This document shows positions 434 to 42,721 of a stretch of 64,000 bases of DNA, one piece after another. Origin of the DNA: Meiothermus sp. (GTDB taxonomy: Bacteria; Deinococcota; Deinococci; Deinococcales; Thermaceae); assembly GCA_040290005.1 (NCBI GenBank), contig PSMF01000002.1, forward strand, positions 12,542 to 76,541, in the 5' to 3' direction. Position 1 is the stretch's first letter; each line of letters begins with the position of its first letter. The position numbers were made by a program, and so were the translations under genes. The notes under the pieces are model-generated. The model was given only the letters and a program-made list of their open reading frames with translations, was not told the DNA's origin and searched no databases.

Positions 434-729
434 TATCCTCCGTGGGTGTCAGGGCAAACCCTGAGCCATCCCAGTCTGACACACCGACGATGAGAAGATT
501 GCTTGGAGGGGTAAACAAGCAATGAGCAAGTAGCGCTGAGCAATGAGCTAGGACAGACCCCCCGACGTTGACAGCTCTCCCGCAATTTCGTACACAGAGA
601 CCTCTTCACCCTGCCCCCCGCTAGCGGGGGGGGGAGGAGAGGCAATAGGGCCATCACCAAGTTACTGACGGCCACGGCACGCGCGGGGGCCGCTTTTGCC
701 TTAGCTCAACGCTTATTGCTCATCGCTGC

Positions 730-1524
730 CTACCCCTTCAACCCTTCCTCAAACGTCTCCACGATACGCCGCTCGTAGATCAGATAGAGGATAACCAAGG
801 GCAAAGTCGCCGCCAGCGCCGCCGCCGAAAGCGGTCCCCAGTCCGCCGGGTTTTGCCGCTGTAGGTCGGTGATCCAGGTTTGCACGGTTTTGAGGCCGGG
901 TTCCCCCGCCACGATACGTGGATAAAGCACCAAGTTCCAGTGGGCGGCGAAGGCCAAAACCCCCGCCGCGATGAGCTGCGAGCGCAGCAGCGGGAACAAA
1001 ATCCACCCGAGCAGGACACGGTGTCCGGCCCCGTCCAAGCGGGCAGCCTCGAGCAGCTCCTCCGGCACCGTGCGCATCCCCTGGTACAACAAGTAGACGA
1101 TATAAGGACTGGCCGCAAACGGCAGAATCAACGCCCAGACCGTATCCAGTATCCGCAGCCCTTGAAGCAGCCCGTACAGCGGCACCAGCAGCAGCTCCAC
1201 CGGAATCGCCAGCATCACCAGAAAAAAGGGCAGCAGCCTGGCCCCTTCGCGGATCGAATAGGCCGCTAGAAAACCGGTGGTGAGTTGTAAAACGGTGGTA
1301 AACCCCGTAACCAACAGCGAGAACACCAACCGGCCCCAGAACCCTTCCCAGAAGCCGTCCTTTGCCAGCACCGCGAAGTTCGCTAAGCTAAAACCGAAAT
1401 GCCCGAAGATATTGCCGGTGAACACCTGCTCCGGCGGAATAAACGCCGCGTAAGCCATCCACAAGAAGGGAAGGCCGACCAGCAAGGCGACCGTCCAGAC
1501 GAAGGCGTGGCGAATAATATTCAC
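730..1524 (-). CDS. ABC transporter permease (carbohydrate, MalG/UgpE-like)
   Basis: 264-aa hydrophobic ORF with the EAA loop 'EELLEAARLDGAGHRVLLGWILFPLL'. Confidence 0.9.
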   Translation of the reverse strand: MNIIRHAFVWTVALLVGLPFLWMAYAAFIPPEQVFTGNIFGHFGFSLANFAVLAKDGFWEGFWGRLVFSLLVTGFTTVLQLTTGFLAAYSIREGARLLPFFLVMLAIPVELLLVPLYGLLQGLRILDTVWALILPFAASPYIVYLLYQGMRTVPEELLEAARLDGAGHRVLLGWILFPLLRSQLIAAGVLAFAAHWNLVLYPRIVAGEPGLKTVQTWITDLQRQNPADWGPLSAAALAATLPLVILYLIYERRIVETFEEGLKG

Positions 1525-1692
1525 CCGGACCTCCTCGAGCCGCCAAAGCCGACCCCCCTCTGCTGAAAGCCGCCCTGTGATTTTGTAAACACCGAGGTTC
1601 TCGCGGTTCCCCCCTGCGTGCAGGGGGGAACCGTGCGCCGCCTGTCAACACACCAAACTCTGCCGGACGCGCCGACTCCGGGGGGTCGCCTT

Positions 1693-2577
1693 TTAGCCGT
1701 TCGCATCGTTGCTCCTCAGCAGCCTGGCCTGCGCCAAAGCGAACAGCAAAGTGAGAATCAGGATGATCACCGTGAGGGCCGCGGCGTAGCCCAAGCGTCC
1801 GATCTCGAAGCCGGTTTTGTACAGGTAATAACCCAGCACCTCGGTTCCACCAAAGGGACCGCCCCTGGTGAGCAGAAACACCGCCGTGTACGACTGAAGC
1901 GTGAGCACCGTGCCGATCACCACCAGAAAGGTGATGGCCGGGCGCAACAGCGGCAGGGTGATGTGGCGAAAGATTTGTGCAGGGGTGGCCCCGTCCACCG
2001 CCGCGGCCTCGGCGAGCGCCTTGGGAATCGCCTTGAGCCGCGCCGAAACTACCAGCACGCCGTAGCCGATGTGCCGCCACAAGGTAAACAGCATGATCAG
2101 CACCAGCGCCCAGAACGCACTCTGGTCCCAGCGGGGGACCGGAAGTACTGCCGCTAGCGCACCATATTCAGGTGAAAACAGGGTGTACCACGCTACAGCC
2201 GCCCCGCCCAGCGTGACCAGCCCCGGCAGAAACAGCAGGGCTTTGATGCCCCGCTCGTAGCGCTGCCCGTCGAGGGCCAAAGCCAGCAGCACCGAGAGCA
2301 AGATGAAGGGCGGCAAGGTCATCAGGGCGAAGATGAGCGTGGTGCGCAGGCTCCGGCCAAAGTCGGGGTCTTGCAGAATTTGGCTGTAATTCTCTAAGCC
2401 GATGGGCTTGGGGGCCGAGAGCCCCGACCAGTCCCAGGTGGAGAAGCGCAGCACATCGAGAAACGGGTACAGCAAAAATAACCCCAGCAGCAGGCCTGCC
2501 GGGAGGGCAAACCACTGGGCAGATGATCGCGGGCCAAACCAGGCCCGCGTCCTAGAAGGTGGTGCGGCACGCTGCAT
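1693..2577 (-). CDS. ABC transporter permease (carbohydrate, MalF/UgpA-like)
   Basis: 294-aa multi-TM ORF with the EAA loop 'LAEAAAVDGATPAQIFRHITLPLLRP'. Confidence 0.9.
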   Translation of the reverse strand: MQRAAPPSRTRAWFGPRSSAQWFALPAGLLLGLFLLYPFLDVLRFSTWDWSGLSAPKPIGLENYSQILQDPDFGRSLRTTLIFALMTLPPFILLSVLLALALDGQRYERGIKALLFLPGLVTLGGAAVAWYTLFSPEYGALAAVLPVPRWDQSAFWALVLIMLFTLWRHIGYGVLVVSARLKAIPKALAEAAAVDGATPAQIFRHITLPLLRPAITFLVVIGTVLTLQSYTAVFLLTRGGPFGGTEVLGYYLYKTGFEIGRLGYAAALTVIILILTLLFALAQARLLRSNDANG

Positions 2578-2597
2578 AGAGGAGTTCTGGGGTCAAC

Positions 2598-3113
2598 CTA
2601 CCACAAGTACAGCACCGACAGCTTGAGCGGATAGCGGTCGGAGAGGGCCACCTCTAAGGCCACCGGGTCGAGGTAAAGCCGCCCGCCTAGACCGTAAGCC
2701 AGGTTGAATCCGGCTTCGTAACCGAGTCCCAAATAGCCAGAGATAGCCCCGCCGGGAATCTCCACCGTCGCCACTGTGCCAAGATGCGTCCCAAACACGC
2801 TGCTAAGGCTGTTATAACTCGCGTCCAGACCTAACCCCACCGAAAACGGCAGGTCGCCCAGAGTGAGCGCGGGCAATAGGTTGGCCTTGAACAAAGCCCA
2901 CACCTCAGCGCCGTTAAACGCGGTAGGAACGATCACTTCTGCATCCAAGCCGGTGTCTATACCGAGCGGGCTAAAGGGTAAGCTGGTGCTGCCCTGCAGC
3001 ACGATTCCCCTGCCAATACCAAACCCGATTCCGGCAGTGTTTTCGGGGTAGGCCGGAACCTGGGCGAAGGCCAGGCCAGCGAAGAGCGTCAGGAGTGCGA
3101 ACAGTCGTTTCAT
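2598..3113 (-). CDS. small secreted beta-barrel-like (outer-membrane type) protein, unknown function
   Basis: Signal peptide MKRLFALLTLFAGLAFAQ (ATG at 3113 chosen inside the 2598..3140 ORF). Gly/aromatic-rich alternating pattern and a C-terminal 'LSVLYLW'. Confidence 0.5.
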   Translation of the reverse strand: MKRLFALLTLFAGLAFAQVPAYPENTAGIGFGIGRGIVLQGSTSLPFSPLGIDTGLDAEVIVPTAFNGAEVWALFKANLLPALTLGDLPFSVGLGLDASYNSLSSVFGTHLGTVATVEIPGGAISGYLGLGYEAGFNLAYGLGGRLYLDPVALEVALSDRYPLKLSVLYLW

Positions 3114-6195: not shown

Positions 6196-9006
6196 GTGTA
6201 TAGTGTAGTCACTGTGGGCGAAGTTAGTACACACCAGGCGACGCCTAGCGTCGGGCGCTATGCGCCTAACCTGTGGCAAACCCACCTCGAGACCCTCCGC
6301 CCCAAGCTTTCCGGGCGCGACCACCGCGGCAAAAAGGGCAGCTTAAGGTGGCTCGAGGCCGCCGTGGCCGAGCGCGGCGGGCGGGCCGGGACGGTGCGCA
6401 ACATCCTCTACAAAGATTTGGGGAGCCCCGAGGAGAAGCTGCGCCTCTTCGACGTATTGGCTGACCTTTACACCGATGCCGGTCTGGAGGCTCCATCGCT
6501 ACCCTCCGAACTGGCGCTCGAGTCGGCGCGAAGGGCACTGGGACGGGATAAACGACGGCTATTTAGAAGATTCGTGCGGGGGCTCGAGGCCGGGGAAAAG
6601 CCGCAGATGGTGATGGTTGGCGGCGCAGTTACGGGAAAAGGAGTGCTGCTGGCAGCGGTAGAACGAGCCATCCCCGAAAGCCTGACGGTGAATCTGGGCG
6701 GTGAGCTGGCCCAGCATCTTTACCCACTGGCGGAAAAACTCGGCGTGGAGCTGGAAGAGAACCTTGCTCAGCTCTCCCCTACCCAGCCTTACGCCCTGCA
6801 AGCGGCCCTCCAGGACGAGCTTCGCAACGATTTGGCTCGAGCCCTTAACGCTTACGGCAAGCCGCTTCTGCTCCGAGCCGAGAAGGACGGACAAATCGGC
6901 GGCTTGAGTTTGCGCGACCCGCAGGGCAACCCGGTGGGGCTGGCGGCCTGGCTCGAGCCCCTCCTCCGCCGCCTGACCGTTCCTTTCCTGGCTGGTCTTT
7001 CCGAGGCCCCGCCCAACCTCGCTTGGAGCCCGCTTTCGGCCCCCAGCCGGGCCGAGGCACGGCGCTACGTTAAGGACCGCCTGCCCGACCTGGCTCCTGA
7101 GCGGGTGGAAGCCTTGGTTAACCAGGCCGGGCGGAACTTCGCTGAGTTATCTAGATTGGTGCTGCTCGAGGCCGCACAAACTCAGGGCAGTTCGCCAAAT
7201 TTAGCGCAAGATTCCACGCTACGACCCGTATTGCAGGCGCTGAGCGTGCTTTCCCCCGATGCCGACCCCGCCGTGCCGGTCCCATTGCTAGAGAAAGCGC
7301 TTGGCAAAGGTTTGGATAAACTCTCGCAGGCCGAGCGCACCCTTCTGGCCCCGATGGGCGAGAGCAAGGTGCGCCCTGCCCTGCGTTCGCTGCTGCCCGA
7401 AGTGCCTGAGCGGGAGGCCAGGAAACTACACGCTCTGGCCCTGGAATTCTTCAAAGACGATGTGTTCCGCCAGCTTCACCACGCCTTAGGTGCGCGGCGG
7501 CTGGAACGGCTGCTCGAGCTCCTTTCGCAAGACCCCAGCCGCCTTTCGCTGCTGCCCAATCTCTGGCCCAACTCTGCCGGTTGGCCGCGTCCTGAACGAG
7601 AAAAGCTGGCGATGGCGGTGGTGCGCTACCGCGCGGTGCTGGGCCAATATGCCCACCCCGAGGCGCTCGAGGCGCTCGAGTTACTCTCCGGGTCGCCGGA
7701 CGCAGATACTCAGGCTTGGGCGCGGGTCAAGTCGGCGGAGGCCAAAGTGGACGCGGGCGATTTCCACGCCGCGCTGCGGTTGCTCCCGCCTCCTGAAACC
7801 CTTCAGGGCGAGGTGGGGGCCGAAGGACTCCTGGTCTGGGCCGCGGTGGAGCGCTGGCAAGGTGACTATGCTCAGGCCGAAGAATACGTCCAGCAAGCCC
7901 TGGCCCTACCAACCCCGCCCTTCCTGGCCGACCGGGTGCGGCTATGGCAGGGTCTGGTGGCAAAGGATGCCGGGCGCTTCCCCGAAGCCCTGGACGCGCT
8001 CAAAGAGGTCGCCCACGACCCGCTTCTGGTGGGCCGTGCCCGTTATCAGTCGGGTGATTTGCTGCTGCGTTTAGGACGGGTCTACGAGGCCGAGGAGCAG
8101 ATGGGGCTGGGCTTGGAAGCCCTCGAGGCCGCCGGAGCTCCCACCGAGGAAGTGGCACGGGTGCGAGCCCGGTTTGGCACGGTGCTGCGGCGCTTGGCGA
8201 AGTTCGCGGCCTCTGAGAAACACCTCTACCGCGCGGTGCACGAGACCCCAGACCCATTTATCAGAGCAAGGGCGCAGAGTGAGGCGAGCATCTTAGAAGC
8301 TGCGCGGGGACGGCCTATCGAAGCCCTAGCCCAAGCTGCCGAGGCCGAGGCGTATTTCCGCGAGGTGAAAGAACGCCCTGAGGAAGCCCATTACCGCCAC
8401 CGCCGCACCCTGTTCCGCATGGCCGTGGCCTACTGGGTGAGGGACACCGGCCTGCCCTATCTGGCTCCCTTTCCCGGCGGGCAAAACTCCGTACAGGCCG
8501 GGCGAATTTTGGGGGCCTTGCAAGCCGAACTTCGCGCTCACAAGCTCCCCGGAGACCGCTACGCGGCACTCGAGCTGGACGTGGCGCTCCTCCTCTCGCT
8601 GCTGATCCCCGCTAGGGACGCGGAAAAACTTCTCAAGCCGCAGCTCAAGCAGAACGACCCGTATTTTCAGGCCCAGGCTCGGCTCGGCTATGCGGAGGCT
8701 TTAGCGCGGCAGGGCAAGTGGGGCGAAGCCCTGGCCCAGACGGTACAAATCGGCGACCTGCCCGACCCCGGTGTGGTGAGCGGAAAGCTGGGTTTAGAGG
8801 TTCAAGCCCTGCTCGGCTTAGGCCAAGAAGAGGCGGCCTGGGCCAAGCTCGCCGCCCCCAGCACCTTACCCGAGCCCTACCGCGCTCAACTGGGCCGGGT
8901 GCTGGGCAAGTTGTGGTCAGAAGAAGACCTAACGAAACGCTTGGGGAACAGCTCTCCTTTAGCCTCGGAGGATACTTTGGCGCTATGGCTCAGCGCATCA
9001 GGCTGA
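6196..9006 (+). CDS. large TPR-repeat protein with a degenerate P-loop (STAND/AAA-like?) N-terminal region
   Basis: 936-aa ORF. 'MVMVGGAVTGKGVLLAAV' resembles Walker A but lacks the Ser/Thr. The C-terminal ~500 aa are Ala/Leu-rich TPR-like helical repeats. The GTG start is uncertain. Confidence 0.7.
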   Translation: MYSVVTVGEVSTHQATPSVGRYAPNLWQTHLETLRPKLSGRDHRGKKGSLRWLEAAVAERGGRAGTVRNILYKDLGSPEEKLRLFDVLADLYTDAGLEAPSLPSELALESARRALGRDKRRLFRRFVRGLEAGEKPQMVMVGGAVTGKGVLLAAVERAIPESLTVNLGGELAQHLYPLAEKLGVELEENLAQLSPTQPYALQAALQDELRNDLARALNAYGKPLLLRAEKDGQIGGLSLRDPQGNPVGLAAWLEPLLRRLTVPFLAGLSEAPPNLAWSPLSAPSRAEARRYVKDRLPDLAPERVEALVNQAGRNFAELSRLVLLEAAQTQGSSPNLAQDSTLRPVLQALSVLSPDADPAVPVPLLEKALGKGLDKLSQAERTLLAPMGESKVRPALRSLLPEVPEREARKLHALALEFFKDDVFRQLHHALGARRLERLLELLSQDPSRLSLLPNLWPNSAGWPRPEREKLAMAVVRYRAVLGQYAHPEALEALELLSGSPDADTQAWARVKSAEAKVDAGDFHAALRLLPPPETLQGEVGAEGLLVWAAVERWQGDYAQAEEYVQQALALPTPPFLADRVRLWQGLVAKDAGRFPEALDALKEVAHDPLLVGRARYQSGDLLLRLGRVYEAEEQMGLGLEALEAAGAPTEEVARVRARFGTVLRRLAKFAASEKHLYRAVHETPDPFIRARAQSEASILEAARGRPIEALAQAAEAEAYFREVKERPEEAHYRHRRTLFRMAVAYWVRDTGLPYLAPFPGGQNSVQAGRILGALQAELRAHKLPGDRYAALELDVALLLSLLIPARDAEKLLKPQLKQNDPYFQAQARLGYAEALARQGKWGEALAQTVQIGDLPDPGVVSGKLGLEVQALLGLGQEEAAWAKLAAPSTLPEPYRAQLGRVLGKLWSEEDLTKRLGNSSPLASEDTLALWLSASG

Positions 9007-9937: not shown

Positions 9938-9950
9938 AGCACAAGGTTAG

Positions 9951-10092
9951 CAGAGGGCAAAGAGACGAGGGCAAAAAGCCAAAAAATCGGCTCCTGTCTA
10001 GGGCGATAAGCTCTATGCAGCAAGATTCTCCGTTCTGGGCACAAAAGGTTTGAGTCTAACCCTCTGCCCTCTGCCCTTTGCCCTCTGCCCTC
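9951..10092. repeat. heptad-periodic inverted repeat (word AGGGCAA/CCCTCTG)
   Basis: Left arm 'agggcaa agagacg agggcaa' (9954-9974). Right arm 'ccctctg ccctctg ccctttg ccctctg ccctc' (10060-10092). The loop contains 'gattctccgttctgggcac'. Confidence 0.85.
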
Positions 10093-14968: not shown

Positions 14969-14984
14969 GGTTCTCCTTTCGGAA

Positions 14985-15106
14985 AGCGATGAGCGATGAG
15001 CTAAAACCGGGCTTGGAGCGCGTGGCTCGTAGCCTGTGGAGGTTTTTACCACTTGCCACAAGCTACAGGCCACTGGCACTTGGCTCATGACTCATCGCTC
15101 ATTGCT
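14985..15106. repeat. heptad-periodic inverted repeat (word GAGCGAT/GCTCAT)
   Basis: 'agcgatgagcgatgagctaaaa' pairs with 'tggctca tgactca tcgctca ttgct'. Lies at the potC/potD junction. Confidence 0.85.
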
Positions 15107-15893
15107 ATCTCCTCTGTCCGATCAAAAACGAAACCGTCACAAACAGCACCGAAACCGCCAGCAGCAGTGTAGAAATCGCGTTCACCTCGGGGGTTATCCC
15201 GATGCGAATCATACCGAAAATGTAGACCGGCAGGGTAGTGGCCCCGGCTCCCGCGACAAAAAAGGTGATCACGAAATCGTCCATCGAGGTGATGAAGGCC
15301 AGCATCGCGCCGGAAACGATGCCGGGGACGAGCAGGGGCAGCGTGACGCGGCGGAAGGTGCGCCATGGGTTCGCGTAGAGGTCGGCGCTAGCTTCCATCA
15401 GCTTCGGGTCGAGGCCCTCGAGCCTCGCCCGAATCGGCAGGTACGCGAAGGGGATGCAGAAAACCGTGTGCGCGATGATGACCGTAAGCAGCCCCAGTTG
15501 GATGCCGATGGCGAGGAAGAATAAAAGCGATGCGACTGCGGTGACGATTTCCGGCACCAGGAGTGGCAAACCGACCAGGCCATTAAACACATTCTGGCCG
15601 CGAAACTTGCGTCCTGCCATGCCCACTGCGGCGGCGGTGGCGACGACGGTGGAAATAATCGTCGAGATGCTGGCGACCACCAGCGAGTTTTGCGTAGCCC
15701 GCAGGATGTTGGGGTTGTTCAGGACCACGTTATACCAATCCAGGCTGAACCCCGTCCAGATGGTCGCCACCTGATTCGCGTTGAAAGAAAGTGCCACCAG
15801 CACGAAAATCGGCACGTACAAGAAGGCGAAGAAGAACACCATCACCCAGAACAGGCCGGGGAAGCGCCAGAGGGGGTTGCGAGGGTTAACCAT
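15105..15893 (-). CDS. potC: spermidine/putrescine ABC transporter permease
   Basis: ATG at 15893 (MVNPRNPLWRFPGLFWVMVFF...). Multi-TM protein with the EAA-like loop 'LMEASADLYANPWRTFRRVTLPLLVPGI'. Confidence 0.88.
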   Translation of the reverse strand: MVNPRNPLWRFPGLFWVMVFFFAFLYVPIFVLVALSFNANQVATIWTGFSLDWYNVVLNNPNILRATQNSLVVASISTIISTVVATAAAVGMAGRKFRGQNVFNGLVGLPLLVPEIVTAVASLLFFLAIGIQLGLLTVIIAHTVFCIPFAYLPIRARLEGLDPKLMEASADLYANPWRTFRRVTLPLLVPGIVSGAMLAFITSMDDFVITFFVAGAGATTLPVYIFGMIRIGITPEVNAISTLLLAVSVLFVTVSFLIGQRR

Positions 15894-15907
15894 GCGAAAC
15901 CCCTTGG

Positions 15908-16008
15908 CGCAGGTCGCAGGTCGCAAGCGGGCAGTCGAAGGTCGAAAGTCTAAGGTCGAAGGCCAAAACCTCGTTCTGACTTTTGACCTTAGACCTTTGT
16001 CCTTCGAC
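15908..16008. repeat. heptad-periodic inverted repeat (words GTCGCAG/GTCGAAG)
   Basis: 'gtcgaag gtcgaaa gtctaag gtcgaag' (15934-15961) pairs with 'ttttgac cttagac ctttgtc cttcgac' (15981-16008). Lies at the potB/potC junction. Confidence 0.9.
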
Positions 16009-18080: not shown

Positions 18081-18290
18081 CAGCGATGAGCTATGAGCAA
18101 TGAGCGATGAGCTAAAAGCGTCTTAGGTCGTACGTCTTACGCTTTACGCCAAAACCACCTCATGTCCAGAACGAGGATTCTCAAACCTTGATTTCAACGT
18201 CCCAGAGGTGAGCTAGGTTTTTAGCCTTTAGCGTACGATGTTGGACCTAAGACGTACGATTGCCCTGGCTCATGGCTAGTTGCTCATGGC
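18081..18290. repeat. triple-nested heptad/loop-motif hairpin element (~210 bp)
   Basis: Outer shell: 'cagcgat gagctat gagcaat gagcgat gagctaa' / 'ggctcat ggctagt tgctcat ggc'. Middle shell: 'gtcttag gtcgtac gtcttac gctttac' / 'gcgtacg atgttgg acctaag acgtacg'. Core: 'ctcatgtccagaacgaggattc ... gatttcaacgtcccagaggtgag'. Confidence 0.9.
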
Positions 18291-20147: not shown

Positions 20148-20228
20148 AAGCGTCGCAAGTCTCGAGTCTCAGGTCTCAGGCCAACGCCAAGGCTTTTGAC
20201 ATGCGACATGAGACCTGTAACCTGCGAC
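20148..20228. repeat. heptad-periodic inverted repeat (word GTCTCAG)
   Basis: 'aagtctc gagtctc aggtctc' (20157-20177) pairs with 'ttttgac atgcgac atgagac ctgtaac ctgcgac'. Lies at the E1a/E1b junction. Confidence 0.88.
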
Positions 20229-21222: not shown

Positions 21223-22683
21223 ATGCCCAAAGAAATCGTCCTGCCCGAACTCGCCGAATCCGTTGTAGAAGGCGAAATCCTCAAGTGGCTGGTGGAGGAA
21301 GGCCAGCCGCTCAAGAAGGACCAGCCCTTTGTTGAGGTGATGACCGATAAGGTCACAGTGGAGCTACCTAGCCCCTACGAAGGCGTGCTGCTGCAAAAGC
21401 TGGTGAAGGAGGGCGATGTGGTGGCGGTTCACGCGCCCATCGCCACCGTCGCCGAACCCGGCGAGGTCACCGGAACCATCAGCGACCGGAATCACGCCTC
21501 GCCCATCAGCGACAAGAACCCTGAGCCCGCTCCAGCACCCAATCTTCAAGCCCAAGAAGAACGCAGCATCGTGGAGCCCGGCAACATCGCCGAGGACGAC
21601 GGGGCGAACCTTTCCTTGTTCAAGCCGGACGGCAAACAGGAGCAGGTGAAGAACCCGTTCGCGGCTCGGGCCTCCTCCACCGCGGTCGCTGAGCCTCCTA
21701 AAGCGGCAACCAATCCTCATGGGCGCGTCATCGCCGTTCCCGCCGCGCGGAAGATGGCTCGAGACTTAGGTCTTGAAATCACCCAAATTCCGGGCAGCGG
21801 CCCCAACGGTCGGATTCGGGTAGACGACGTAAAAGCCTTCGCACAGAACCCCCAATCCGCCGCTCACCCCGTAGGGACGACAGGCCCGTCGTCCCTACAA
21901 ACTCCGCAGGCTAAAGCACCGACCCCTTCGGGCTTCCCTGCGCCAGTCCAGTACAAATCCCCTAAAGGCTACCAAACCCAGGAAGCCCGCGTCCCTCTGC
22001 GCGGTCTGCGACGGGCGATTGCGAACCAGATGATCGCCTCGCACCTCTATACGGTGCGCACCCTCAGCGTGGACGAGGCCGATTTGACCGACCTTGTGGC
22101 GATGCGCGGCAGGCTCAAACCTGCTGCCGAAGCACAGGGAGTCAAACTCTCGTATCTACCGTTCATCTTCAAGGCCCTCGCTATCGCGCTGAAGAAGTTC
22201 CCGGCTGTCAACTCCTCGATGGATGAGGCAAAACAAGAAATCGTGTTGAAGGGCTATTACAACATCGGCATGGCGGTGGCGACGGAGGCCGGTTTGGTCG
22301 TGCCGGTGATCAAGGACGTGGATAAGAAGTCCATCTTACAGATTGCTCGAGAAATCAATGAACTCGCGGAGAAAGCCAGAAACAACAAACTCGCCCCCGA
22401 GGACATGACCGGCTCCACCTTCAGCGTCACTAATATCGGCTCGATTGGTGCCTTATTCAGCTTCCCCATCATCAACGTCCCGGACGCAGCAATTCTCGGT
22501 GTACACAGCATTCAAAAGCGCCCGATGGTGATGGAAAACGACGAAATCAAAGTTCGGCAGATGATGTACCTGTCGCTCAGCTTCGACCACCGTTTGGTGG
22601 ACGGGGCGGAGGCAGCAATGTTCTGCAAAGAGGTCATTCGGCTGCTGGAAAAACCGGATTTGATTCTGCTTGAGGCGGTTTAG
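21223..22683 (+). CDS. dihydrolipoamide acyltransferase E2
   Basis: Lipoyl site 'VMTDKVTVELPSP', subunit-binding domain 'AVPAARKMARDLGLEITQIPGSGPNGRI', catalytic 'SLSFDHRLVDGAEAA'. Confidence 0.95.
   Translation: MPKEIVLPELAESVVEGEILKWLVEEGQPLKKDQPFVEVMTDKVTVELPSPYEGVLLQKLVKEGDVVAVHAPIATVAEPGEVTGTISDRNHASPISDKNPEPAPAPNLQAQEERSIVEPGNIAEDDGANLSLFKPDGKQEQVKNPFAARASSTAVAEPPKAATNPHGRVIAVPAARKMARDLGLEITQIPGSGPNGRIRVDDVKAFAQNPQSAAHPVGTTGPSSLQTPQAKAPTPSGFPAPVQYKSPKGYQTQEARVPLRGLRRAIANQMIASHLYTVRTLSVDEADLTDLVAMRGRLKPAAEAQGVKLSYLPFIFKALAIALKKFPAVNSSMDEAKQEIVLKGYYNIGMAVATEAGLVVPVIKDVDKKSILQIAREINELAEKARNNKLAPEDMTGSTFSVTNIGSIGALFSFPIINVPDAAILGVHSIQKRPMVMENDEIKVRQMMYLSLSFDHRLVDGAEAAMFCKEVIRLLEKPDLILLEAV
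21871..21898. repeat. REP-like 28-nt palindrome inside the E2 linker
   Basis: 'gtagggacgac aggccc gtcgtccctac' is a perfect 11-bp inverted repeat. It is translated as ..PVGTTGPSSLQ.. Confidence 0.85.
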
Positions 22684-22713
22684 TCTTACGTCGTACGTCC
22701 TACGTCTTACGCC
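22683..22713. repeat. heptad arm (word GTCNTAC), left bracket of the four-helix-bundle gene
   Basis: 'gtcttac gtcgtac gtcctac gtcttac gcc'. The arm starts in the last base of the E2 TAG. Confidence 0.9.
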
Positions 22714-22714
22714 T

Positions 22715-23092
22715 ATGGCTGAGCCCTACACGAGCTACTTCGGCTTTGAGAATCTCGAAGTGTATCAGCTCGGCCTCGAGTTCATAGCAGAGATTTACCA
22801 GCTCACCAAAAGGTTTCCTAAATCCGAGCAGTTCGGTTTGACCAATCAGATTCAGCGAGCCGCAGTTTCTGTCTGCCTGAACATTGCCGAGGGGCGGGGC
22901 CGAGATGGCGATAAGGACTTTGTGCGGTTTTTGGGTATAGCCCGTGGCTCGCTGTTTGAGGTGGTGAGCGGTTTATATGCGGCGATAAAGCTCGAGTACC
23001 TGTCCGAGGCCCAGATTCAGTCGCCCCTGGCGAACGCCAGCCGCATCAAGGCCAAACTCAACCCCCTAGCCAACGCGGTGAGCAAAGATTGA
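22715..23092 (+). CDS. four-helix-bundle protein (23S rRNA intervening-sequence protein / Avd-like family)
   Basis: 'FENLEVYQLGLEFIAEIYQLTKRFPKSEQFGLTNQIQRAAVSVCLNIAEGRGR...FLGIARGSLFEV' is the hallmark pattern. ATG at 22715. Confidence 0.85.
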   Translation: MAEPYTSYFGFENLEVYQLGLEFIAEIYQLTKRFPKSEQFGLTNQIQRAAVSVCLNIAEGRGRDGDKDFVRFLGIARGSLFEVVSGLYAAIKLEYLSEAQIQSPLANASRIKAKLNPLANAVSKD

Positions 23093-23123
23093 GCGTACGA
23101 CGTTAGACGTACGACGTACGACC
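23093..23123. repeat. heptad arm (word ACGTACG), right bracket of the four-helix-bundle gene
   Basis: 'gcgtacg acgttag acgtacg acgtacg acc' is the inverted complement of 22683-22713. It starts directly after the stop codon. Confidence 0.9.
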
Positions 23124-23141
23124 ACCCATAATAGGAGCGGT

Positions 23142-28391: not shown

Positions 28392-28937
28392 ATGCGAATC
28401 CGCGCCACCCTCAACGCCCTCTCAGTCCGGCTCGACGGCAACGAAACGCCCGAAATCCTCCGCAAAGCCCTAGCCGACCTCCCCGAGTCACCCTTGGAGG
28501 TCGAAGTCAGCGGCCCGGTGACGAAGGATGTCTTAGAGGCTCTCCTCGAGATCGGCCAGAACCGGGGGTTGCAACTGCGCCCTCAACGCGGCGAAAAACT
28601 CATCCCCTATACCGAAGTGATTGACCAAAATCTGCGGGCTGGGAGCCGGATCGAGTCTCCCGGAACGGTGGTGATCCTGGGAGATGTCAACCCTGGAGCG
28701 GAGATCATCGCGGCGGGAGATATCATCGTGGTGGGCAAGCTGCGGGGCTTAGCCCACGCCGGGGCCGACGGGCAGGAGGAGGCGGCCATCTGGGCGATGA
28801 GCCTAGAAGCCAAGCAGATTCGTATTGCGGGCATGGTGGCCCAAGCCCCCACCGAAGACAAAGGCGGGCGTGGCCCGGAGCGGGCCAGGGTGGTGGACGG
28901 GAGAATCGTGCTCGAGAGCTGGGGAAAGAAGCAATGA
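28392..28937 (+). CDS. minC: septum site-determining protein MinC
   Basis: C-terminal beta-helix 'GTVVILGDVNPGAEIIAAGDIIVVGKLRGLAHAG'. Confidence 0.85.
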   Translation: MRIRATLNALSVRLDGNETPEILRKALADLPESPLEVEVSGPVTKDVLEALLEIGQNRGLQLRPQRGEKLIPYTEVIDQNLRAGSRIESPGTVVILGDVNPGAEIIAAGDIIVVGKLRGLAHAGADGQEEAAIWAMSLEAKQIRIAGMVAQAPTEDKGGRGPERARVVDGRIVLESWGKKQ

Positions 28938-29093
28938 GCAACTAGCCATGAGCGATGAGCCAAAAACCAAAGGCCAAGGACTTTCTCTCCATAAGAGAGA
29001 ATCTCGAGTCCCTTTTTTACCGTCCCAGACATGAGCTTGTTTTTGGCTATCGGCGTTTTGCTCTTGCTCATCGCTCATTACTCATCACTCATG
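28931..29093. repeat. nested heptad-periodic inverted repeat (words GAGCNAT and CCAAAAG)
   Basis: 'gcaatgagcaactagccatgagcgatgagc caaaaaccaaaggccaagg' pairs with 'cttgtttttggctatcggcgttttg ctcttgctcatcgctcattactcatcactcatgg'. The minC TGA lies inside the first word. Confidence 0.88.
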
Positions 29094-29893: not shown

Positions 29894-30020
29894 AGCAATG
29901 AGCGACTAGCGATGAGCCACGAGCCTAAAAGCAGAGCGCTGAGAGCTGAGGGCACAGAGCCGAGGGCCTTTGACTTTGCTGCCCTCTGCCCCTTTAGCTC
30001 ATTGCTCACCGCTCACCGCT
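29894..30020. repeat. nested heptad-periodic inverted repeat
   Basis: 'agcaatgagcgactagcgatgagccacgagcctaaaagc' pairs with 'cctttagctcattgctcaccgctcaccgct'. The inner arm 'agagcgc tgagagc tgagggc acagagc cgagggc' pairs with 'gctgccctctgcccc'. Confidence 0.85.
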
Positions 30021-30037
30021 AAAGTTATCCTTTCCCC

Positions 30038-32972: not shown

Positions 32973-32979
32973 AAGGACA

Positions 32980-33009
32980 GCCTAAAGCTAAAGGCCAAAA
33001 GCCGAAGGC
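32980..33009. repeat. single heptad-word arm (word GCCAAAA)
   Basis: 'gcctaaa gctaaag gccaaaa gccgaag gc' lies between polX and the PHP phosphatase gene. Confidence 0.6.
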
Positions 33010-33805: not shown

Positions 33806-33814
33806 AGTCGCCTC

Positions 33815-33912
33815 ACGCTAAACGCAAAACGCAAGGCGCTCAAGCCCGATTTGATACCTCACATCTGGGACGAAGAAATCTCGCGTTAGGAAATCACGTC
33901 CTGAACGCGATG
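33815..33912. repeat. heptad words plus loop-motif hairpin
   Basis: 'ctaaacg caaaacg caaggcg', then 'cacatctgggacgaagaaatc tcgcgttag gaaatcacgtcctgaacgcg'. Confidence 0.7.
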
Positions 33913-37065: not shown

Positions 37066-37656
37066 ATGATTGAGACCCCCGAAATCCCCCGCCAGGCCGA
37101 GGTAGCACTCCCCGCCAAAGAGACCGCACTCATCGTGGTGGACATGCAAAACGACTTTGTGGAACCGGAGGGCACCCTGTTCGTGCCGGATGCCGAGGCC
37201 ACCGTGCCCCACATCCGGCGGCTTCTAGAGAAAGCTAGGGGCGCAGGGGTGAAGGTGGTGTACACCCAAGACTGGCACCCCGAGGGCGACCCCGAGTTCA
37301 ACATCTGGCCCCGGCACGTGGTCCAAGGCACTTGGGGGGCCCAAATCATTGACGAGCTAAAGCCGCGACCTGAGGACACTGTGCTGCAAAAAGCTCGCTA
37401 TGACGGGTTTTACGGGACCCAACTCGAGCACCTCCTGCATTTGTGGGGCATTAAGAGCGTGGTGATCGTGGGAACGGTCGCCAACATCTGCGTGCTACAC
37501 ACCGCCGGGAGCGCCGCGCTGCGCTGGTACAACGTGGTGCTGCCCGAAGACGGGACCTCGGCCCTGACGCCGTTTGACAAAGAGAGTGCCTTGCGACAGG
37601 TGACGTTTTTGTATTTGGGCAAGGTGACGACCTGCGACGGGGTGAAGTTTGAATAA
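37066..37656 (+). CDS. isochorismatase-family cysteine hydrolase (nicotinamidase-like)
   Basis: 'ALIVVDMQNDFVEPEGTLFVPDAEA', 'YTQDWHP', 'VGTVANICVLHTA' (Asp-Lys-Cys triad context). Confidence 0.85.
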   Translation: MIETPEIPRQAEVALPAKETALIVVDMQNDFVEPEGTLFVPDAEATVPHIRRLLEKARGAGVKVVYTQDWHPEGDPEFNIWPRHVVQGTWGAQIIDELKPRPEDTVLQKARYDGFYGTQLEHLLHLWGIKSVVIVGTVANICVLHTAGSAALRWYNVVLPEDGTSALTPFDKESALRQVTFLYLGKVTTCDGVKFE

Positions 37657-37789
37657 CGTCAAACGTCGAACATCGAAGGTCAAACGCCCAAAAAAGGCGG
37701 AAAGCCGGAAGCCAGAAGCTAAACGCGCAGAACAGACCCCTGTAGGGACGACGGGCCCAGTATCAAACGTCAGGGCCGAAACTCAAACC
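37655..37789. repeat. run of heptad words plus a half REP-like site
   Basis: 'aacgtca aacgtcg aacatcg aaggtca aacgccc', then 'ggaaagc cggaagc cagaagc taaacgc', then 'gtagggacgacgggccc'. Confidence 0.7.
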
Positions 37790-41327: not shown

Positions 41328-41345
41328 TAGCGCTTTTGAGAAGCT

Positions 41346-41372
41346 CGAGGCGACGGTCGCCTCGGGTTTTTT
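41346..41372 (+). terminator. intrinsic terminator
   Basis: 'cgaggcgacggtcgcctcg ggtttttt'. Confidence 0.75.
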
Positions 41373-41458
41373 GTCCTTCCTTAAGCCTTGTTTCAGGTAT
41401 CAAGGGTATTCAATTTCAGTGACCCAGCGGACAATGCGGGCTATGAAAGGAATCCCCC

Positions 41459-42667
41459 ATGGCTAGAACCCTCAGTTATCAGGATGCTACACATCTGCTG
41501 CGCCGCGCCGCCGCACGGGGACGCAAGGAGGAGGCGCAGCATCTCGTGGAGATGGGCTTGGAGGCCGCCGTGGACTCTCTCCTGCAAGACCCGGCCCCCG
41601 CACCACCCTTCCACACCGAGGTCTCCAGCAACGAGCGCGGCGACCAGCACCGCCAGATGATCCAGGCCTGGCTCACCCACTGGCTCACCACGACCACGCC
41701 CACCGCCGAGCGGCTGGTGCTGTTCTGGCATGGCCACCTCACCTCGGAGTTTCGCAGCACGATGGGGGCACAGTCGAGCGATGCCTGGACCCAGTTTGAA
41801 GTTTTCCGGCAGAACGCCTACGGGCCATTCAGCAAGTTGCTGAAGGCGGTCGCCCACAACCCGATGATGCTGCTCTACCTCAACAATGCCGAAAGCCGCA
41901 AGGAGCACCCCAACGAAAACTGGGCACGCGAGCTGATGGAGCTGTACACCGTCGGGCCCGGCTTCTACACGGAAAAAGACATCCAGGAGTCGGCCAGGGC
42001 TTTTACCGGCTGGACGGTGCGGCTGGCGAGCGGCAACGGCGGCAAGATGCGCGACCCCAACGAAGCCTTCGAGTATTTCTTCCGCAAAAACTGGCACGAT
42101 GGCGAACCCAAAACCTTCATGGGGCGGCAAATCGGGAGTGGCGAGGAGGTGCTGGATATCCTCAGCAACCACCCTCAGACTTATCTTTTCGTAGGCCGCA
42201 AGCTGCTGGCCTATTACCTCACCCCCACGCCTCCCGAAACACTCGTCCAGGAGGGCGCGAAGGTGCTGCAAAGCGGCGGAACCCGCGAGATGCTGCGCTG
42301 GCTGTTCACCCGCGGTGATTTTTACGCGCCGCAGTACCGAGGCACGATTGTGAAGAGCCCGCTCGAGTACGTCATCGGCCTGCTCTACGCTGCCTCGCAA
42401 ACGAAGCCGGTCATCGGCAAGGATGACGAAAAAGCCCCCAACCGCCTGCTCAACGCCTTCGCCGCGATGGGCCAAATTCCCTTCGACCCGCCCACCGTCA
42501 AAGGCTGGGACGGCGGCATGAGCTGGCTGGCCGAGTCTCCCCTGCTCACCCGCCTGAACCTTATCAGCAACTTTGCGGGCAAAGAGAAAACCCTCGATCT
42601 GGAGGTGTTCATGGACGGGGCCAACGGGCCGCTCGCGCTGGTCAAGCCGGAGGCACAACTGCTTTGA
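41459..42667 (+). CDS. DUF1800-family protein
   Basis: 'ATHLLRRAA', 'FWHGHLTSE', 'ARELMELYTVG', 'FTGW' are DUF1800 hallmarks. Confidence 0.85.
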   Translation: MARTLSYQDATHLLRRAAARGRKEEAQHLVEMGLEAAVDSLLQDPAPAPPFHTEVSSNERGDQHRQMIQAWLTHWLTTTTPTAERLVLFWHGHLTSEFRSTMGAQSSDAWTQFEVFRQNAYGPFSKLLKAVAHNPMMLLYLNNAESRKEHPNENWARELMELYTVGPGFYTEKDIQESARAFTGWTVRLASGNGGKMRDPNEAFEYFFRKNWHDGEPKTFMGRQIGSGEEVLDILSNHPQTYLFVGRKLLAYYLTPTPPETLVQEGAKVLQSGGTREMLRWLFTRGDFYAPQYRGTIVKSPLEYVIGLLYAASQTKPVIGKDDEKAPNRLLNAFAAMGQIPFDPPTVKGWDGGMSWLAESPLLTRLNLISNFAGKEKTLDLEVFMDGANGPLALVKPEAQLL

Positions 42668-42721
42668 ACCGTTGACCGTCAACCGAAAAGGCGCGTTTAC
42701 GGTCAACCGTAAACGGTTAAC
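42666..42721. repeat. heptad-periodic palindrome (word GTCAACC)
   Basis: 'gaaccgttgaccgtcaaccgaaaaggcgcgtttacggtcaaccgtaaacggttaac' lies between the DUF1800 and DUF1501 genes. Confidence 0.85.

What the first reader, a model, noticed from the sequence alone, without database searches (positions are those of the whole stretch)
517..42721. Family of hairpin elements whose arms are tandem 7-nt words, with a different word at each locus
At 13 or more loci, the non-coding DNA directly after a stop codon or before an RBS has the same architecture. It consists of 2-5 tandem 7-nt words, a short loop, and then the reverse-complement words. The result is an imperfect hairpin with heptad-periodic arms. 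Examples read directly from the sequence:
- 'gtcgaag gtcgaaa gtctaag gtcgaag' (15934-15961) pairs with 'ttttgac cttagac ctttgtc cttcgac' (15981-16008).
- 'gtcttac gtcgtac gtcctac gtcttac' (22683-22710).
- 'aagtctc gagtctc aggtctc' (20157-20177).
- 'agggcaa agagacg agggcaa' (9954-9974) pairs with 'ccctctg ccctctg ccctttg ccctctg' (10060-10087).
- 'cagcgat gagctat gagcaat gagcgat gagctaa' (18081-18115).
Other members lie at 517-728, 14985-15106, 28931-29093, 29894-30020, 32980-33009, 33815-33838, 37655-37728 and 42666-42721. The word changes from locus to locus (GAGCRAT, GTCGAAG, GTCTCAG, CGTACGA, CCCTCTG, GCCAAAA, AACGTCA, GTCAACC). The period, the arm pairing and the placement stay constant. 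A 7-nt period cycles through all three reading frames, and many words contain TGA, TAG or TAA. I do not know of a described repeat class with this architecture. Two possibilities are an RNA-level operon punctuation, processing or stabiliser hairpin, or a MITE-like family whose arms diversify by heptad slippage.
Basis: partly seen in the sequence, partly recalled or inferred. Interest (0 to 1): 0.8.

Follow-up and report, generated by a model that had tools for sequence, protein, structure and literature searches.

The report
Heptamer-armed foldback elements, PF05635 cassettes
The hairpins with 7-base-periodic arms are real, and they are the ends (often without the gene) of a widespread bacterial cassette that carries a small Avd-like four-helix-bundle gene, which gives a candidate protein partner for the long-unexplained heptamer repeats of bacteria.

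Summary
Period-7 tandem runs occur 16 times in the window against 0 expected, and no other period is enriched. Fifteen of the 16 are non-coding, and about ten of them form long imperfect hairpins. Three listed loci are not hairpins, and the words recur between loci rather than being unique to each.

The organism is a Thermaceae (Calidithermus/Meiothermus-like). One element (22683-23122) carries a 125-aa PF05635/TIGR02436 gene ("23S rRNA intervening-sequence protein", Avd-like) between the E2 and E3 genes of a 2-oxoacid (pyruvate-type) dehydrogenase operon.

This pairing is general. In 71 unrelated metagenomic PF05635 loci, 53 have period-7 arrays beside the gene. Their density is 26 times that of the rest of the same contigs. 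In Xanthomonas the flanking arrays are the published GGGAATC repeats.

Arms covary at orthologous junctions. Cassettes are present or absent between species. Arm families recur at non-orthologous sites. There is no sense-strand G·U excess.

My reading is that these are foldback-type hitchhiking elements, related to cyanobacterial STRR and Xanthomonas GGGAATC repeats and to IVS cassettes. The arrays are probably periodic binding sites for the pentameric protein, which is inference. I found no paper linking heptamer repeats to PF05635.

The parts
517..551 (.). E1, 5' arm: AGCAATG-type heptads x5
   Evidence: I8/I12
697..728 (.). E1, 3' arm (CATTGCT-type). It abuts the stop codon (730-732) of the minus-strand gene 730-1524.
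9950..9975 (.). E2, 5' arm: GAGGGCA-type heptads
   Evidence: (I7)
10060..10092 (.). E2, 3' arm: (CCCTCTG)4.7. The ORF 10056-11348(-) reads through it.
14982..15109 (.). E3, nested hairpin. Outer AGCGATG arms are 14982-15004 and 15080-15109. Inner CCACWWG-type arms are 15020-15078.
   Evidence: I24/I25; z -7.4/-8.6
15905..15928 (.). Solo array (CGCAGGT)2.6 next to E4
15934..16008 (.). E4, compact hairpin. GTCGAAG arms are 15934-15969 and 15973-16008. It lies between two minus-strand ABC-transporter genes.
   Evidence: I1; z -7.5; the same arm occurs in L013
18081..18292 (.). E5, doubly nested element between an ABC ATPase gene and rlmH. Outer AGCNATG arms are 18081-18115 and 18262-18292. Inner GTCTTAC arms are 18119-18154 and 18219-18254 and are homologous to the cassette arms. 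The 70-nt core is 18157-18229.
   Evidence: (I2)
20152..20228 (.). E6, hairpin with GTCTCAG / CTGAGAC arms between the dehydrogenase E1-alpha stop and the E1-beta start. The 3' arm overlaps the E1-beta start at 20208.
   Evidence: covariation across 7 genomes
22683..22712 (+). E7, 5' arm of the gene-bearing cassette: (GTCNTAC)4. It starts inside the TAG stop codon of the dehydrogenase E2 gene.
   Evidence: (I4)
22715..23092 (+). E7 cargo: a 125-aa PF05635 / TIGR02436 four-helix-bundle protein ("23S rRNA IVS protein", Avd-like)
   Evidence: 2GSC, E 5.5e-20; pLDDT 94; TM 0.89 to 2GSC, 0.78 to Avd 4DWL
23093..23122 (+). E7, 3' arm (GTACGAC-type, with one GTTAGAC unit), 19 nt before the E3 (lpd) start. 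It is 90-97% identical across species.
28931..29093 (.). E8, nested hairpin between convergent genes. Outer AGCNATG arms are 28931-28960 and 29063-29093. An inner GCCAAAA-type unit is present. The 70-nt core is 28980-29050.
   Evidence: (I9)
29894..30022 (.). E9, nested hairpin between divergent genes. Outer AGCNATG arms are 29894-29925 and 29995-30022. Inner GAGGGCA / CCCTCTG arms are 29940-29992.
   Evidence: z -3.7
32975..33009 (.). E10, solo array (GCCAAAA-type, about 4-5 units) filling a 44-nt intercistronic spacer
33814..33910 (.). E11, solo array (ACGCAAA)2.9 at 33814-33838 plus a 70-nt core copy at 33841-33910 (minus orientation)
37655..37728 (.). E12, two adjacent direct arrays (AACGTCA-type, then GAAGCC-type). 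It is not a hairpin.
   Evidence: z about 0
42666..42721 (.). E13, short weak hairpin with GTCAACC / GGTTGAC units
   Evidence: z -2.1
44150..44270 (.). It has a 70-nt core copy (44159-44231, minus orientation) with AGCNAAT-type heptads on one side.

Best explanation
**What the elements are.** They are foldback-type genetic elements whose two arms are inverted arrays of about 4-5 tandem heptamers.

- The complete form is a small cassette: 5' array, then a PF05635 gene (an Avd-like, pentamer-forming four-helix-bundle protein, the same family as the ORF of 23S rRNA intervening sequences), then the complementary 3' array.
- The cassette is inserted co-directionally between the stop codon of one gene and the ribosome-binding site of the next.
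- The window holds one complete cassette (22683-23122, between the E2 and E3 genes of a 2-oxoacid dehydrogenase operon).
- It also holds about 12 gene-less relatives. Some are nested inside one another, and some carry a 70-nt genome-specific repeat at the apex.

**Shown here.**
- The architecture.
- The cross-phylum linkage of PF05635 genes to period-7 inverted arrays.
- Presence/absence polymorphism and cassette replacement at one junction.
- Recurrence of arm families at non-orthologous sites.
- Covariation of the two arms.
- Sequence-level conservation of an arm above that of its neighbours.

**Inferred.**
1. The elements spread or are copied as DNA. They persist because they sit in transcribed spacers, where the arms pair and loop the insert out. 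This may involve RNase III cutting, as is proven for the homologous 23S IVS.
2. Arm complementarity is kept mainly by DNA-level processes, namely slippage plus template switching between arms of a quasi-palindrome. It is not kept by selection on a sense-strand RNA helix.
3. The heptad arrays (shared core R-G-T-Y plus three free positions) are periodic binding sites for the PF05635 pentamer, one heptad per subunit, in the way the TRAP ring reads spaced triplets. The protein would then regulate itself, and possibly neighbouring genes, or help to propagate the arrays.

The confidence of 0.6 is for the identity and the PF05635 link. Step 3 alone I put at about 0.3.
For: **Period-7 specificity in the window.**
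- 16 runs against 0 expected.

**Hairpin folds.**
- z -3.3 to -8.6.

**The gene inside 22683-23122.**
- PF05635.
- TIGR02436.
- 2GSC E 5.5e-20, with 5 chains per entry.
- The model matches 2GSC, 2RLD, Avd 4DWL and the Avd chains of the DGR ribonucleoprotein 8UB7.

**Generality of the gene-array linkage.**
- Omnitrophica, Luteolibacter and Deinococcus loci have flanking heptad arrays with other words.
- Of 71 metagenome PF05635 loci, 53 have a period-7 run within 100 nt of the ORF. Other periods give 0-2 and shuffled flanks 0-1.
- 39 of the 71 have complementary flanks, against 0 in shuffles.
- Run density is 45.6 per 10 kb beside the ORF and 1.77 per 10 kb elsewhere in the same contigs.
- Arrays start about 1.5 nt after the stop codon and end about 13 nt before the start codon, with about 5 units per arm.
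- The ORF is co-oriented with its downstream gene 47:9 and its upstream gene 46:18.
- The Xanthomonas homologue of the solved XCC0516 sits between accB and accC, flanked by (CGGGAAT)4.4 and (CCCATTC)4.3. These are the GGGAATC repeats of PMC4692102.

**Turnover.**
- The cassette is present at the E2/E3 junction in the window, L001, L002, L004, L006 and L025. It is absent in ten Meiothermus-type loci and in all Thermus loci.
- Two cassette types (GTCNTAC and ACGCAAA) are distributed against the host tree.

**Dispersal.**
- E4 and E6 arms recur at other positions in L013.
- The inner arms of E5 are homologous to the cassette arms.

**Covariation.**
- 89.7% of cells are paired against 77.7% in shuffles, with 0 of 500 shuffles as high.
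- Nine pairs changed on both sides. Slid controls give 27-49%.

**Sequence-level constraint.**
- The 3' arm is 90-97% identical between species. The cassette ORF is 63-88% and the flanking genes 76-92%.

**Shared core.**
- R-G-T-Y core in 42 distinct words: 3.82 bits against 3.01 +/- 0.10 in the null.
Against: - No enzyme for mobility is encoded. No target-site duplication or fixed termini were found.
- PF05635 binding to heptads is untested. Avd is reported to bind nucleic acid without marked sequence specificity (my own knowledge).
- One genome carries at least 8 words but, in this window, only one PF05635 gene. Thermaceae words such as AGCNATG and AAAACGC fit the R-G-T-Y core and the G+T-rich 5' arm rule poorly.
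- The short elements show no detectable remnant of the PF05635 ORF (z <= 2.9).
- None of about 75 sampled PF05635 loci lay in 23S rRNA. The identity with classical IVS stems therefore rests on the protein family and on a reported 28-bp stem (PMC4990558), not on a test of period 7 in an rRNA IVS.
- Conservation of the 3' arm could instead reflect a promoter-like element for lpd.
- The 25% of PF05635 loci without arrays show that the link is not obligatory.
Confidence: 0.6

Rival explanations
1. Host-selected RNA elements. The hairpins would be operon punctuation: processing sites (RNase III), stabilisers or translational couplers in polycistronic mRNA. They would be kept because the host benefits, and the PF05635 gene would be an occasional passenger.
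For: - Placement is exact, between stop codon and ribosome-binding site, in co-directional gene pairs.
- Folds are strong.
- Arms covary at the E1-alpha/E1-beta junction across seven genomes.
- A hairpin has been kept at that junction through most of the Meiothermus/Calidithermus loci although the word changed.
- 23S IVS stems with the same ORF family are cut by RNase III (PMC4990558).
- Most Xanthomonas repeats are transcribed (PMC4692102).
Against: - There is no excess of G·U over A·C mispairs on the sense strand: 33 vs 33 in 48 cassette stems and 10 vs 13 in the window.
- Both strands fold about equally, and for E6 the antisense strand folds better.
- Elements also lie between convergent (E8) and divergent (E9) genes.
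- They are absent from Thermus and several Meiothermus loci that have the same operons.
- Pairing alone does not explain a 7-nt period.
Confidence: 0.2
2. Ordinary simple-sequence repeats. Heptamer arrays would arise by polymerase slippage in non-coding DNA and have no function. The hairpins and the gene association would be by-products.
For: - Heptanucleotide repeats are the commonest long SSR class in many prokaryotic genomes, and slippage was proposed as the cause (summarised in PMC4679880).
- Copy number varies between orthologous arrays.
Against: - Slippage does not create a complementary array of the same word on the other side of a gene.
- It does not explain the 26-fold concentration beside one gene family in unrelated phyla.
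- It does not explain the covariation, the conserved 3' arm or the shared R-G-T-Y core.
Confidence: 0.05
3. Copies of a conventional MITE or IS with conserved terminal inverted repeats, or REP/REPIN-type elements served by a RAYT transposase.
For: - The elements are dispersed, mostly intergenic and palindromic.
- A single gene is flanked by inverted copies of the repeat, as RAYT genes are (my own knowledge).
- Arm families are shared between species.
Against: - No transposase or RAYT lies in or next to the elements. The cassette's neighbours are the dehydrogenase E2 and E3 genes.
- Termini are not conserved between elements.
- The arms are tandem arrays of variable length, not unique sequence.
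- There are no Rfam or other known-family matches.
Confidence: 0.08
4. Intrinsic terminators or G-quadruplex-forming regulatory repeats.
For: - They are hairpins after stop codons.
- The Xanthomonas and Nostoc heptamers were characterised as quadruplex-forming (PMC4692102).
Against: - No T-tract follows the arms, and none of the elements was called terminator-like. Terminator-like sites overall are at chance level (22 vs 20.8).
- Several elements sit inside operons for one enzyme complex.
- Most window words (AGCNATG, GTCNTAC, GTCGAAG) have no G-runs.
Confidence: 0.04

Closest known systems
GGGNATC heptamer repeats of Xanthomonas and Nostoc (Rehm et al. 2015, PMC4692102)
   Same: - 7-nt unit, with about 4 units preferred.
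- Non-coding, between co-oriented genes, close to stop or start codons.
- 70-75 convergent inverted pairs per Xanthomonas genome that can form stem-loops.
- Mostly transcribed.
- I show that one such pair flanks the Xanthomonas PF05635 gene between accB and accC.
   Different: - There the genome is dominated by one G-rich word, which was interpreted as quadruplex-forming.
- Here one genome holds many non-G-rich words and nested arms.
- The paper did not link the repeats to PF05635.
Cyanobacterial STRR (short tandemly repeated repetitive) heptamers, including those extending a helix of RNase P RNA (Mazel 1990 and Vioque 1997, my own knowledge; mentioned in papers listed)
   Same: - Tandem heptamers of several word families.
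- Dispersed and intergenic.
- Can form the two sides of a helix inside a transcribed RNA.
   Different: - Described in heterocystous cyanobacteria, mostly as direct arrays.
- No gene cargo was described.
- Membership of the window's elements was not tested against cyanobacterial genomes.
23S rRNA intervening sequences carrying an S23p/PF05635 ORF (Coxiella, Leptospira; PMC4990558)
   Same: - Same protein family in the loop.
- Terminal inverted repeats form a stem of about 28 bp (4 x 7).
- Sporadic distribution, regarded as selfish and horizontally moved.
- The stem is cut by RNase III.
   Different: - Those sit in helices 9, 25 or 45 of 23S rRNA. These sit in mRNA spacers of protein operons.
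- None of about 75 sampled loci was in rRNA.
- Period 7 has not been checked in the rRNA IVS stems.
REPIN-RAYT systems and eukaryotic Foldback transposons (my own knowledge)
   Same: - REPIN-RAYT: one gene flanked by inverted copies of a repeat that is also dispersed in many gene-less hairpin copies.
- Foldback elements: long inverted arms that are themselves built of short tandem repeats of variable number, and only a few copies carry coding sequence.
   Different: - PF05635 is not a known transposase or nuclease.
- The arm words differ between families within one genome.
- No transposition has been demonstrated.
TRAP / trp leader of Bacillus (working analogy only, my own knowledge) and Avd in DGR ribonucleoproteins (8UB7)
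   Same: - An oligomeric ring or barrel protein that contacts RNA.
- TRAP reads one short motif per subunit in a periodic array just upstream of a start codon.
- Here there are about 4-5 heptads per arm, 13 nt before the start codon, and the protein family forms pentamers.
   Different: - Binding of PF05635 to heptads is entirely untested.
- No reverse transcriptase or template/variable repeats lie next to the cassette, so this is not a DGR.

Membership tests
Bacterial heptamer tandem-repeat elements (STRR / GGGNATC-type) | Tandem unit of exactly 7 nt, enriched over chance | tested here: met
   16 runs at lag 7 against 0 expected. Other periods give about 0.
Bacterial heptamer tandem-repeat elements (STRR / GGGNATC-type) | About four units per array, non-coding, close to stop or start codons of co-oriented genes | tested here: met
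   TRF gives 4.1-4.7 copies. Fifteen of 16 runs are non-coding. The arms abut stop codons.
Bacterial heptamer tandem-repeat elements (STRR / GGGNATC-type) | Convergent inverted pairs able to form stem-loops | tested here: met
   Compare PMC4692102.
Bacterial heptamer tandem-repeat elements (STRR / GGGNATC-type) | G-tracts able to form quadruplexes (GGGNATC subtype only) | tested here: not met
   Window words AGCNATG, GTCNTAC, GTCGAAG and GTCTCAG lack G-runs. Only the GAGGGCA arms have GGG.
IVS-type PF05635 cassette | ORF of the PF05635/TIGR02436 family in the loop | tested here: met
   22715-23092. This holds for one element only. The other 12 or so have no such ORF.
IVS-type PF05635 cassette | Terminal inverted repeats forming a stem of about 28-30 bp around the ORF | tested here: met
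   30-nt arms, 87% complementary (I4).
IVS-type PF05635 cassette | Location in helix 9, 25 or 45 of 23S rRNA | tested here: not met
   The cassette lies between the dehydrogenase E2 and E3 genes. No 23S motifs lie next to any sampled locus.
IVS-type PF05635 cassette | Excision from the transcript by RNase III | not testable with these tools
   This needs RNA end mapping. It has been shown only for rRNA IVSs (PMC4990558).
MITE / IS derivative | Conserved terminal inverted repeats shared with an autonomous transposase-encoding element, plus target-site duplication | tested here: not met
   No transposase lies in or next to the elements. Termini differ between elements. Filled and empty junctions are not alignable, so target duplication is undetermined.
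REP/REPIN-RAYT | A RAYT (Y1 transposase) gene flanked by the repeat | tested here: not met
   The flanked gene is PF05635, a four-helix bundle.
Diversity-generating retroelement | avd next to a reverse transcriptase and template/variable repeats | tested here: not met
   The neighbours are the dehydrogenase E2 and E3 genes. The match to the DGR Avd model is far below its cut-off (20.8 vs 80 bits).
Intrinsic terminator | GC-rich stem followed by a T-tract | tested here: not met
   none of the heptad hairpins was called. Counts are at chance level.
Any curated RNA family (Rfam 15) | Covariance-model match | tested here: not met
   There are 0 hits at gathering score. At E <= 5 none of the hits overlaps an element.

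The most novel reading that the evidence does not exclude
PF05635 proteins are the missing partner of bacterial heptamer repeats. A pentameric Avd-like protein would read arrays of about five 7-nt units (core R-G-T-Y) on RNA or single-stranded DNA. Gene and arrays would form a self-propagating, RAYT/REPIN-like unit that seeds gene-less hairpins through operons (and, as IVSs, into 23S rRNA). This would explain why 7 is the over-represented long repeat unit in prokaryotic genomes, and it would place neighbouring genes under the protein's control.
Probability: 0.3. Interest if true: 0.85.

Novelty: new variant of a known kind. Interest (0 to 1): 0.7.

Why it matters
**An old question.**
- Tandem heptamers have been noted in bacteria for 35 years: cyanobacterial STRR, Xanthomonas GGGAATC, Beggiatoa TAACTGA and Geobacter elements.
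- They still have no accepted origin, partner or function.

**A large family of unknown role.**
- PF05635 is a very large family. One search returned more than 7,000 clusters.
- It has two crystal structures and a famous relative, Avd.
- Outside DGRs it has no known role.

**What the link makes possible.**
- Three quarters of sampled PF05635 genes are bracketed by inverted heptamer arrays. The solved Xanthomonas protein sits inside the published repeats.
- Both problems therefore become testable with one binding experiment.
- It also reframes 23S rRNA intervening sequences as a special case of a cassette that mostly lives in mRNA operons.

**Practical consequences.**
- These elements break assemblies.
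- They mislead gene callers, because ORFs run into the arms.
- They may alter expression of core operons such as the 2-oxoacid dehydrogenase and acetyl-CoA carboxylase operons.

Tried and rejected
1. **Gene-less elements as internally deleted PF05635 genes.** Local alignment of each element to the cassette ORF gave z <= 2.9. An apparent GAGAATCTCGA match was not significant. Rejected.
2. **Heptads as all-frame stop insulators.** 37% observed against 24% expected. This is too weak to be the function.
3. **One hypervariable position per heptad** (visible in AGCNATG and GTCNTAC). It is not general: 0.36 against a null of 0.38.
4. **Sense-strand wobble bias as a sign of RNA selection.** None was found. 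An apparent 15:4 bias in the RNAalifold table is method-biased, and I do not rely on it.
5. **Known RNA families.** None.
6. **Terminators.** None.
7. **A fold for the 70-nt core.** No consensus structure on either strand. It has no relatives outside this genome.
8. **23S rRNA context among the fetched loci.** None.
9. **Genome-specific word shared by cassette and gene-less hairpins.** This looked true for the rlmH junction. However, C. chliarophilus carries both words there, so it is not established.
10. **A metagenome scan with the 22-sequence alignment.** It failed for lack of a conserved stretch. A 4-sequence alignment worked.
11. **Literature searches linking heptamers to S23p, PF05635 or four-helix bundles.** Nothing was found.

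Full report
**1. The observation**

I also ran a sliding test that needs at least 16 of 21 positions to be identical at lag k.
- It gives 16 runs at k=7, against 0.0 in Markov-1 shuffles.
- Periods 4-6, 8, 10, 11, 13 and 15 give none. Period 9 gives one, periods 3 and 12 give three each, and the harmonic 14 gives six.
- Fifteen of the 16 runs lie outside my GC3-based gene calls.

The inverted-repeat scan finds the matching arms. RNA folding gives long imperfect hairpins for these loci:
- 15934-16008: z -7.5.
- 14982-15109: z -7.4 / -8.6.
- 9950-10092: z -5.7.
- 29894-30022: z -3.7.
- 20152-20228: z -3.3 / -5.1.

Three listed loci fail the hairpin description.
- 37655-37728 is two adjacent direct arrays (z about 0).
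- 32980-33009 and 33815-33838 are solo arrays.
- 42666-42721 is only marginal (z -2.1).

The words are not unique to each locus.
- AGCNATG arms occur at five loci, always outermost.
- GTCNTAC, GAGGGCA and a GCCAAAA unit recur.
- Several elements are nested: 18081-18292, 14982-15109, 28931-29093 and 29894-30022.

**2. Organism and the key gene**

A protein-based scan puts the window in Thermaceae. The nearest hit is a Thermaceae MAG at 86% amino-acid identity in the E2 protein, followed by Calidithermus chliarophilus at 78%.

The arrays at 22683-22712 and 23093-23122 are the two arms of one inverted repeat, 30 nt long and 87% complementary. Between them lies a 125-aa ORF, 22715-23092.
- It matches PF05635, "23S rRNA intervening sequence protein".
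- It matches TIGR02436, "four helix bundle protein".
- It matches the solved structure 2GSC (Xanthomonas XCC0516, E 5.5e-20, five chains) and 2RLD (five chains).
- An AlphaFold model (pLDDT 94) superposes on 2GSC (TM 0.89), 2RLD, phage Avd 4DWL (TM 0.78) and the Avd chains of the DGR ribonucleoprotein 8UB7.

The cassette sits between the E2 and E3 genes of a 2-oxoacid (pyruvate-type) dehydrogenase operon. It begins inside the E2 stop codon and ends 19 nt before the E3 start codon. It is the only PF05635 gene in the window.

**3. The gene-array pairing is general**

PF05635 genes fetched from other phyla have the same layout.
- An Omnitrophica contig has GTCNATA / ACTATNG arms.
- A Luteolibacter contig has GGTTGAT / CCATCAA arms, between two ABC ATPase genes.
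- Deinococcus koreensis has GCCATCT units downstream of the gene.

I then analysed 71 metagenomic PF05635 loci that have at least 100 nt of flank on each side.
- 53 have a period-7 run within 100 nt of the ORF, and 30 have one on both sides.
- Periods 5, 6, 8, 9 and 10 give 0, 0, 1, 2 and 0. Shuffled flanks give 0-1.
- 39 have complementary upstream and downstream flanks, against 0 in shuffles.
- Period-7 run density is 45.6 per 10 kb within 120 nt of the ORF ends and 1.77 per 10 kb elsewhere in the same contigs.
- Arrays begin a median of 1.5 nt after the stop codon, end 13 nt before the start codon, and have about 5 units.
- The ORF is co-oriented with its downstream neighbour 47:9 and its upstream neighbour 46:18.

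The Xanthomonas homologues of the crystallised XCC0516 lie between accB and accC. They are flanked by (CGGGAAT)4.4 and (CCCATTC)4.3. These are the GGGAATC heptamer repeats that Rehm et al. described as abundant, preferring four units, lying between aligned ORFs, mostly transcribed, and forming 70-75 convergent inverted pairs per genome (PMC4692102). That paper did not connect the repeats to this gene.

**4. Comparative behaviour in Thermaceae**

Period-7 runs occur in Calidithermus (10 in 21 kb in L002) and in some Meiothermus/Deinococcota MAGs. None occurs in any Thermus locus or in four Meiothermus species.

*E2/E3 junction.*
- The cassette is present in the window, L001, L002, L004, L006 and L025. 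In L025 it is frameshifted, and a second PF05635 gene lies between E1-beta and E2.
- It is absent in ten Meiothermus-type loci and in all Thermus loci.
- Two cassette types share this site. Type A has GTCNTAC arms (window, L004, L006, L025). Type B has ACGCAAA arms (L001, L002).
- The closest host, L001, carries the other type, with only 58% protein identity to the window's copy. Arms and gene therefore travel together and have been exchanged at this site.
- Within type A the 3' arm is 90-97% identical between species. The cassette ORF is 63-88% identical and the flanking E2 and E3 segments 76-92%.

*E1-alpha/E1-beta junction.*
- Almost every Meiothermus/Calidithermus locus has a gene-less heptad hairpin here.
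- The words form a graded series, from GTCTCAG through GTCTTAG to GTCTTAC, plus GAGTCAA and GGTGAAA. The 3' arm follows the 5' arm.
- On a seven-genome alignment, 89.7% of cells pair, against 77.7% in shuffles (0 of 500 as high) and 27-49% for slid partners. Nine pairs changed on both sides.

*Recurrence elsewhere.*
- The window's E4 arm recurs at two other positions in L013 (34/37 and 28/30 identical).
- The E6 3' arm recurs at a third position in L013.
- The inner arms of E5 are homologous to the cassette arms, including the odd GTTRGAC unit.

**5. At what level do they act?**

If a sense-strand RNA helix were under selection, G·U mispairs should outnumber A·C mispairs. They do not.
- 33 vs 33 in 48 cassette stems.
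- 10 vs 13 in the window's operon-embedded hairpins.

Other observations point the same way.
- Both strands fold about equally.
- Some elements lie between convergent or divergent genes.
- The elements are not terminators.
- They match no Rfam family.

These results fit maintenance of complementarity at the DNA level. The likely processes are slippage within arrays and template switching between the arms of a quasi-palindrome, which is an established mutational mechanism (my own knowledge). RNA-level processing is not excluded. In Coxiella, the 28-bp stem of the homologous 23S IVS is cut by RNase III in vitro, and the mapped IVS ends lie in the middle of that stem (PMC4990558).

**6. Why seven?**

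This remains unexplained.
- Stops in all three frames are only modestly enriched, 37% against 24%.
- A single degenerate column per unit is not general.

Three leads remain.
- After optimal rotation, 42 distinct words share an R-G-T-Y core (3.82 bits, against 3.01 +/- 0.10 for letter-shuffled words).
- The 5' arm is G+T-rich in 39 of 41 arrays and the 3' arm is A+C-rich in 45 of 46. This polarity reads the same from either DNA strand. Some Thermaceae words do not obey it.
- There are four to five units per arm, and the protein family crystallises as five chains. Its relative Avd is a pentamer that contacts RNA in the DGR ribonucleoprotein.

From these I infer, at about 30%, that the arrays are periodic binding sites with one heptad per subunit. 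This is analogous to the TRAP ring reading spaced triplets.

**7. Comparison with what is known, and novelty**

The kind is known.
- Heptamer repeats have been described as cyanobacterial STRR, Xanthomonas/Nostoc GGGNATC including inverted pairs, Beggiatoaceae TAACTGA (PMC4679880) and Geobacter elements (PMC2700814).
- IVS elements with a PF05635 ORF and terminal inverted repeats have also been described.

The following appear to be undescribed in the library I could search.
- The heptamer inverted arrays are the termini of PF05635 cassettes across phyla.
- These cassettes live mainly in protein operons.
- The words share a core.
- In Thermaceae they form many-word, nested families.

I file the window's elements as a new variant of a known kind.

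**8. Limits**
- I could not scan whole genomes, so co-occurrence of PF05635 genes and heptamer arrays per genome is untested.
- No classical rRNA IVS was examined for period 7.
- Protein binding, RNase III cutting and mobility are all inferences.

Noticed in passing
window 18157-18229(+), 28980-29050(+), 9975-10045(-), 33841-33910(-), 44159-44231(-): There are five copies of a ~70-nt repeat (GTCCAGAACGAG.AATCT...CGTCCCAGA..TGAGCT.GTTTTT). Each sits at the apex of, or beside, heptad arms and is bounded by GCCAAAA(C)C ... GTTTTTGGC. It has no copy in any fetched locus, no Rfam match and no consensus fold. It may be a small element that targets heptad hairpins.
   Followed up: partly
window 32191-32219: A period-7 run (GATAGCT CATAGCC CTTAGCC GATAGCC) lies inside the 538-aa ORF 31356-32972(-). 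It is the only run inside a called gene.
   Followed up: no
window 23104-23132: A promoter-like site (TAGACG-N17-CATAAT) uses the irregular GTTAGAC unit of the cassette's 3' arm as its -35. The ATAAT(A/G)GGAG stretch before lpd is conserved in L001, L002, L004, L006 and L025. This could contribute to the 90-97% conservation of that arm.
   Followed up: partly
window 10056-10092; 28935-28937; 15105-15107; 18290-18292; 22681-22683: Coding regions run into the arms. The ORF 10056-11348(-) ends with about 12 codons made of CAGAGGG heptads. The stop codons of four other genes lie inside the first heptad of an arm.
   Followed up: no
L025 3026-3418 and 4967-5339: This Meiothermus MAG has two PF05635 genes in one 2-oxoacid dehydrogenase operon. 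One, with GCCTATC-type arms, lies between E1-beta and E2. The other, between E2 and E3, is frameshifted.
   Followed up: partly
L002 6837-6990: Downstream of rlmH, C. chliarophilus has five different heptad arrays in a row, including (TTTTGCG)x8-9 and a GCGTACGAC fragment. This is a concatenation of direct arrays rather than a hairpin.
   Followed up: partly
L117 4858-5327: A 97-bp tandem repeat, 4.9 copies at 90% identity, lies downstream of accC in Xanthomonas campestris.
   Followed up: no
window 52101-54977(-), 6196-9006(+): There are large TPR proteins, one with a CHAT domain. They are unrelated to the finding.
   Followed up: no
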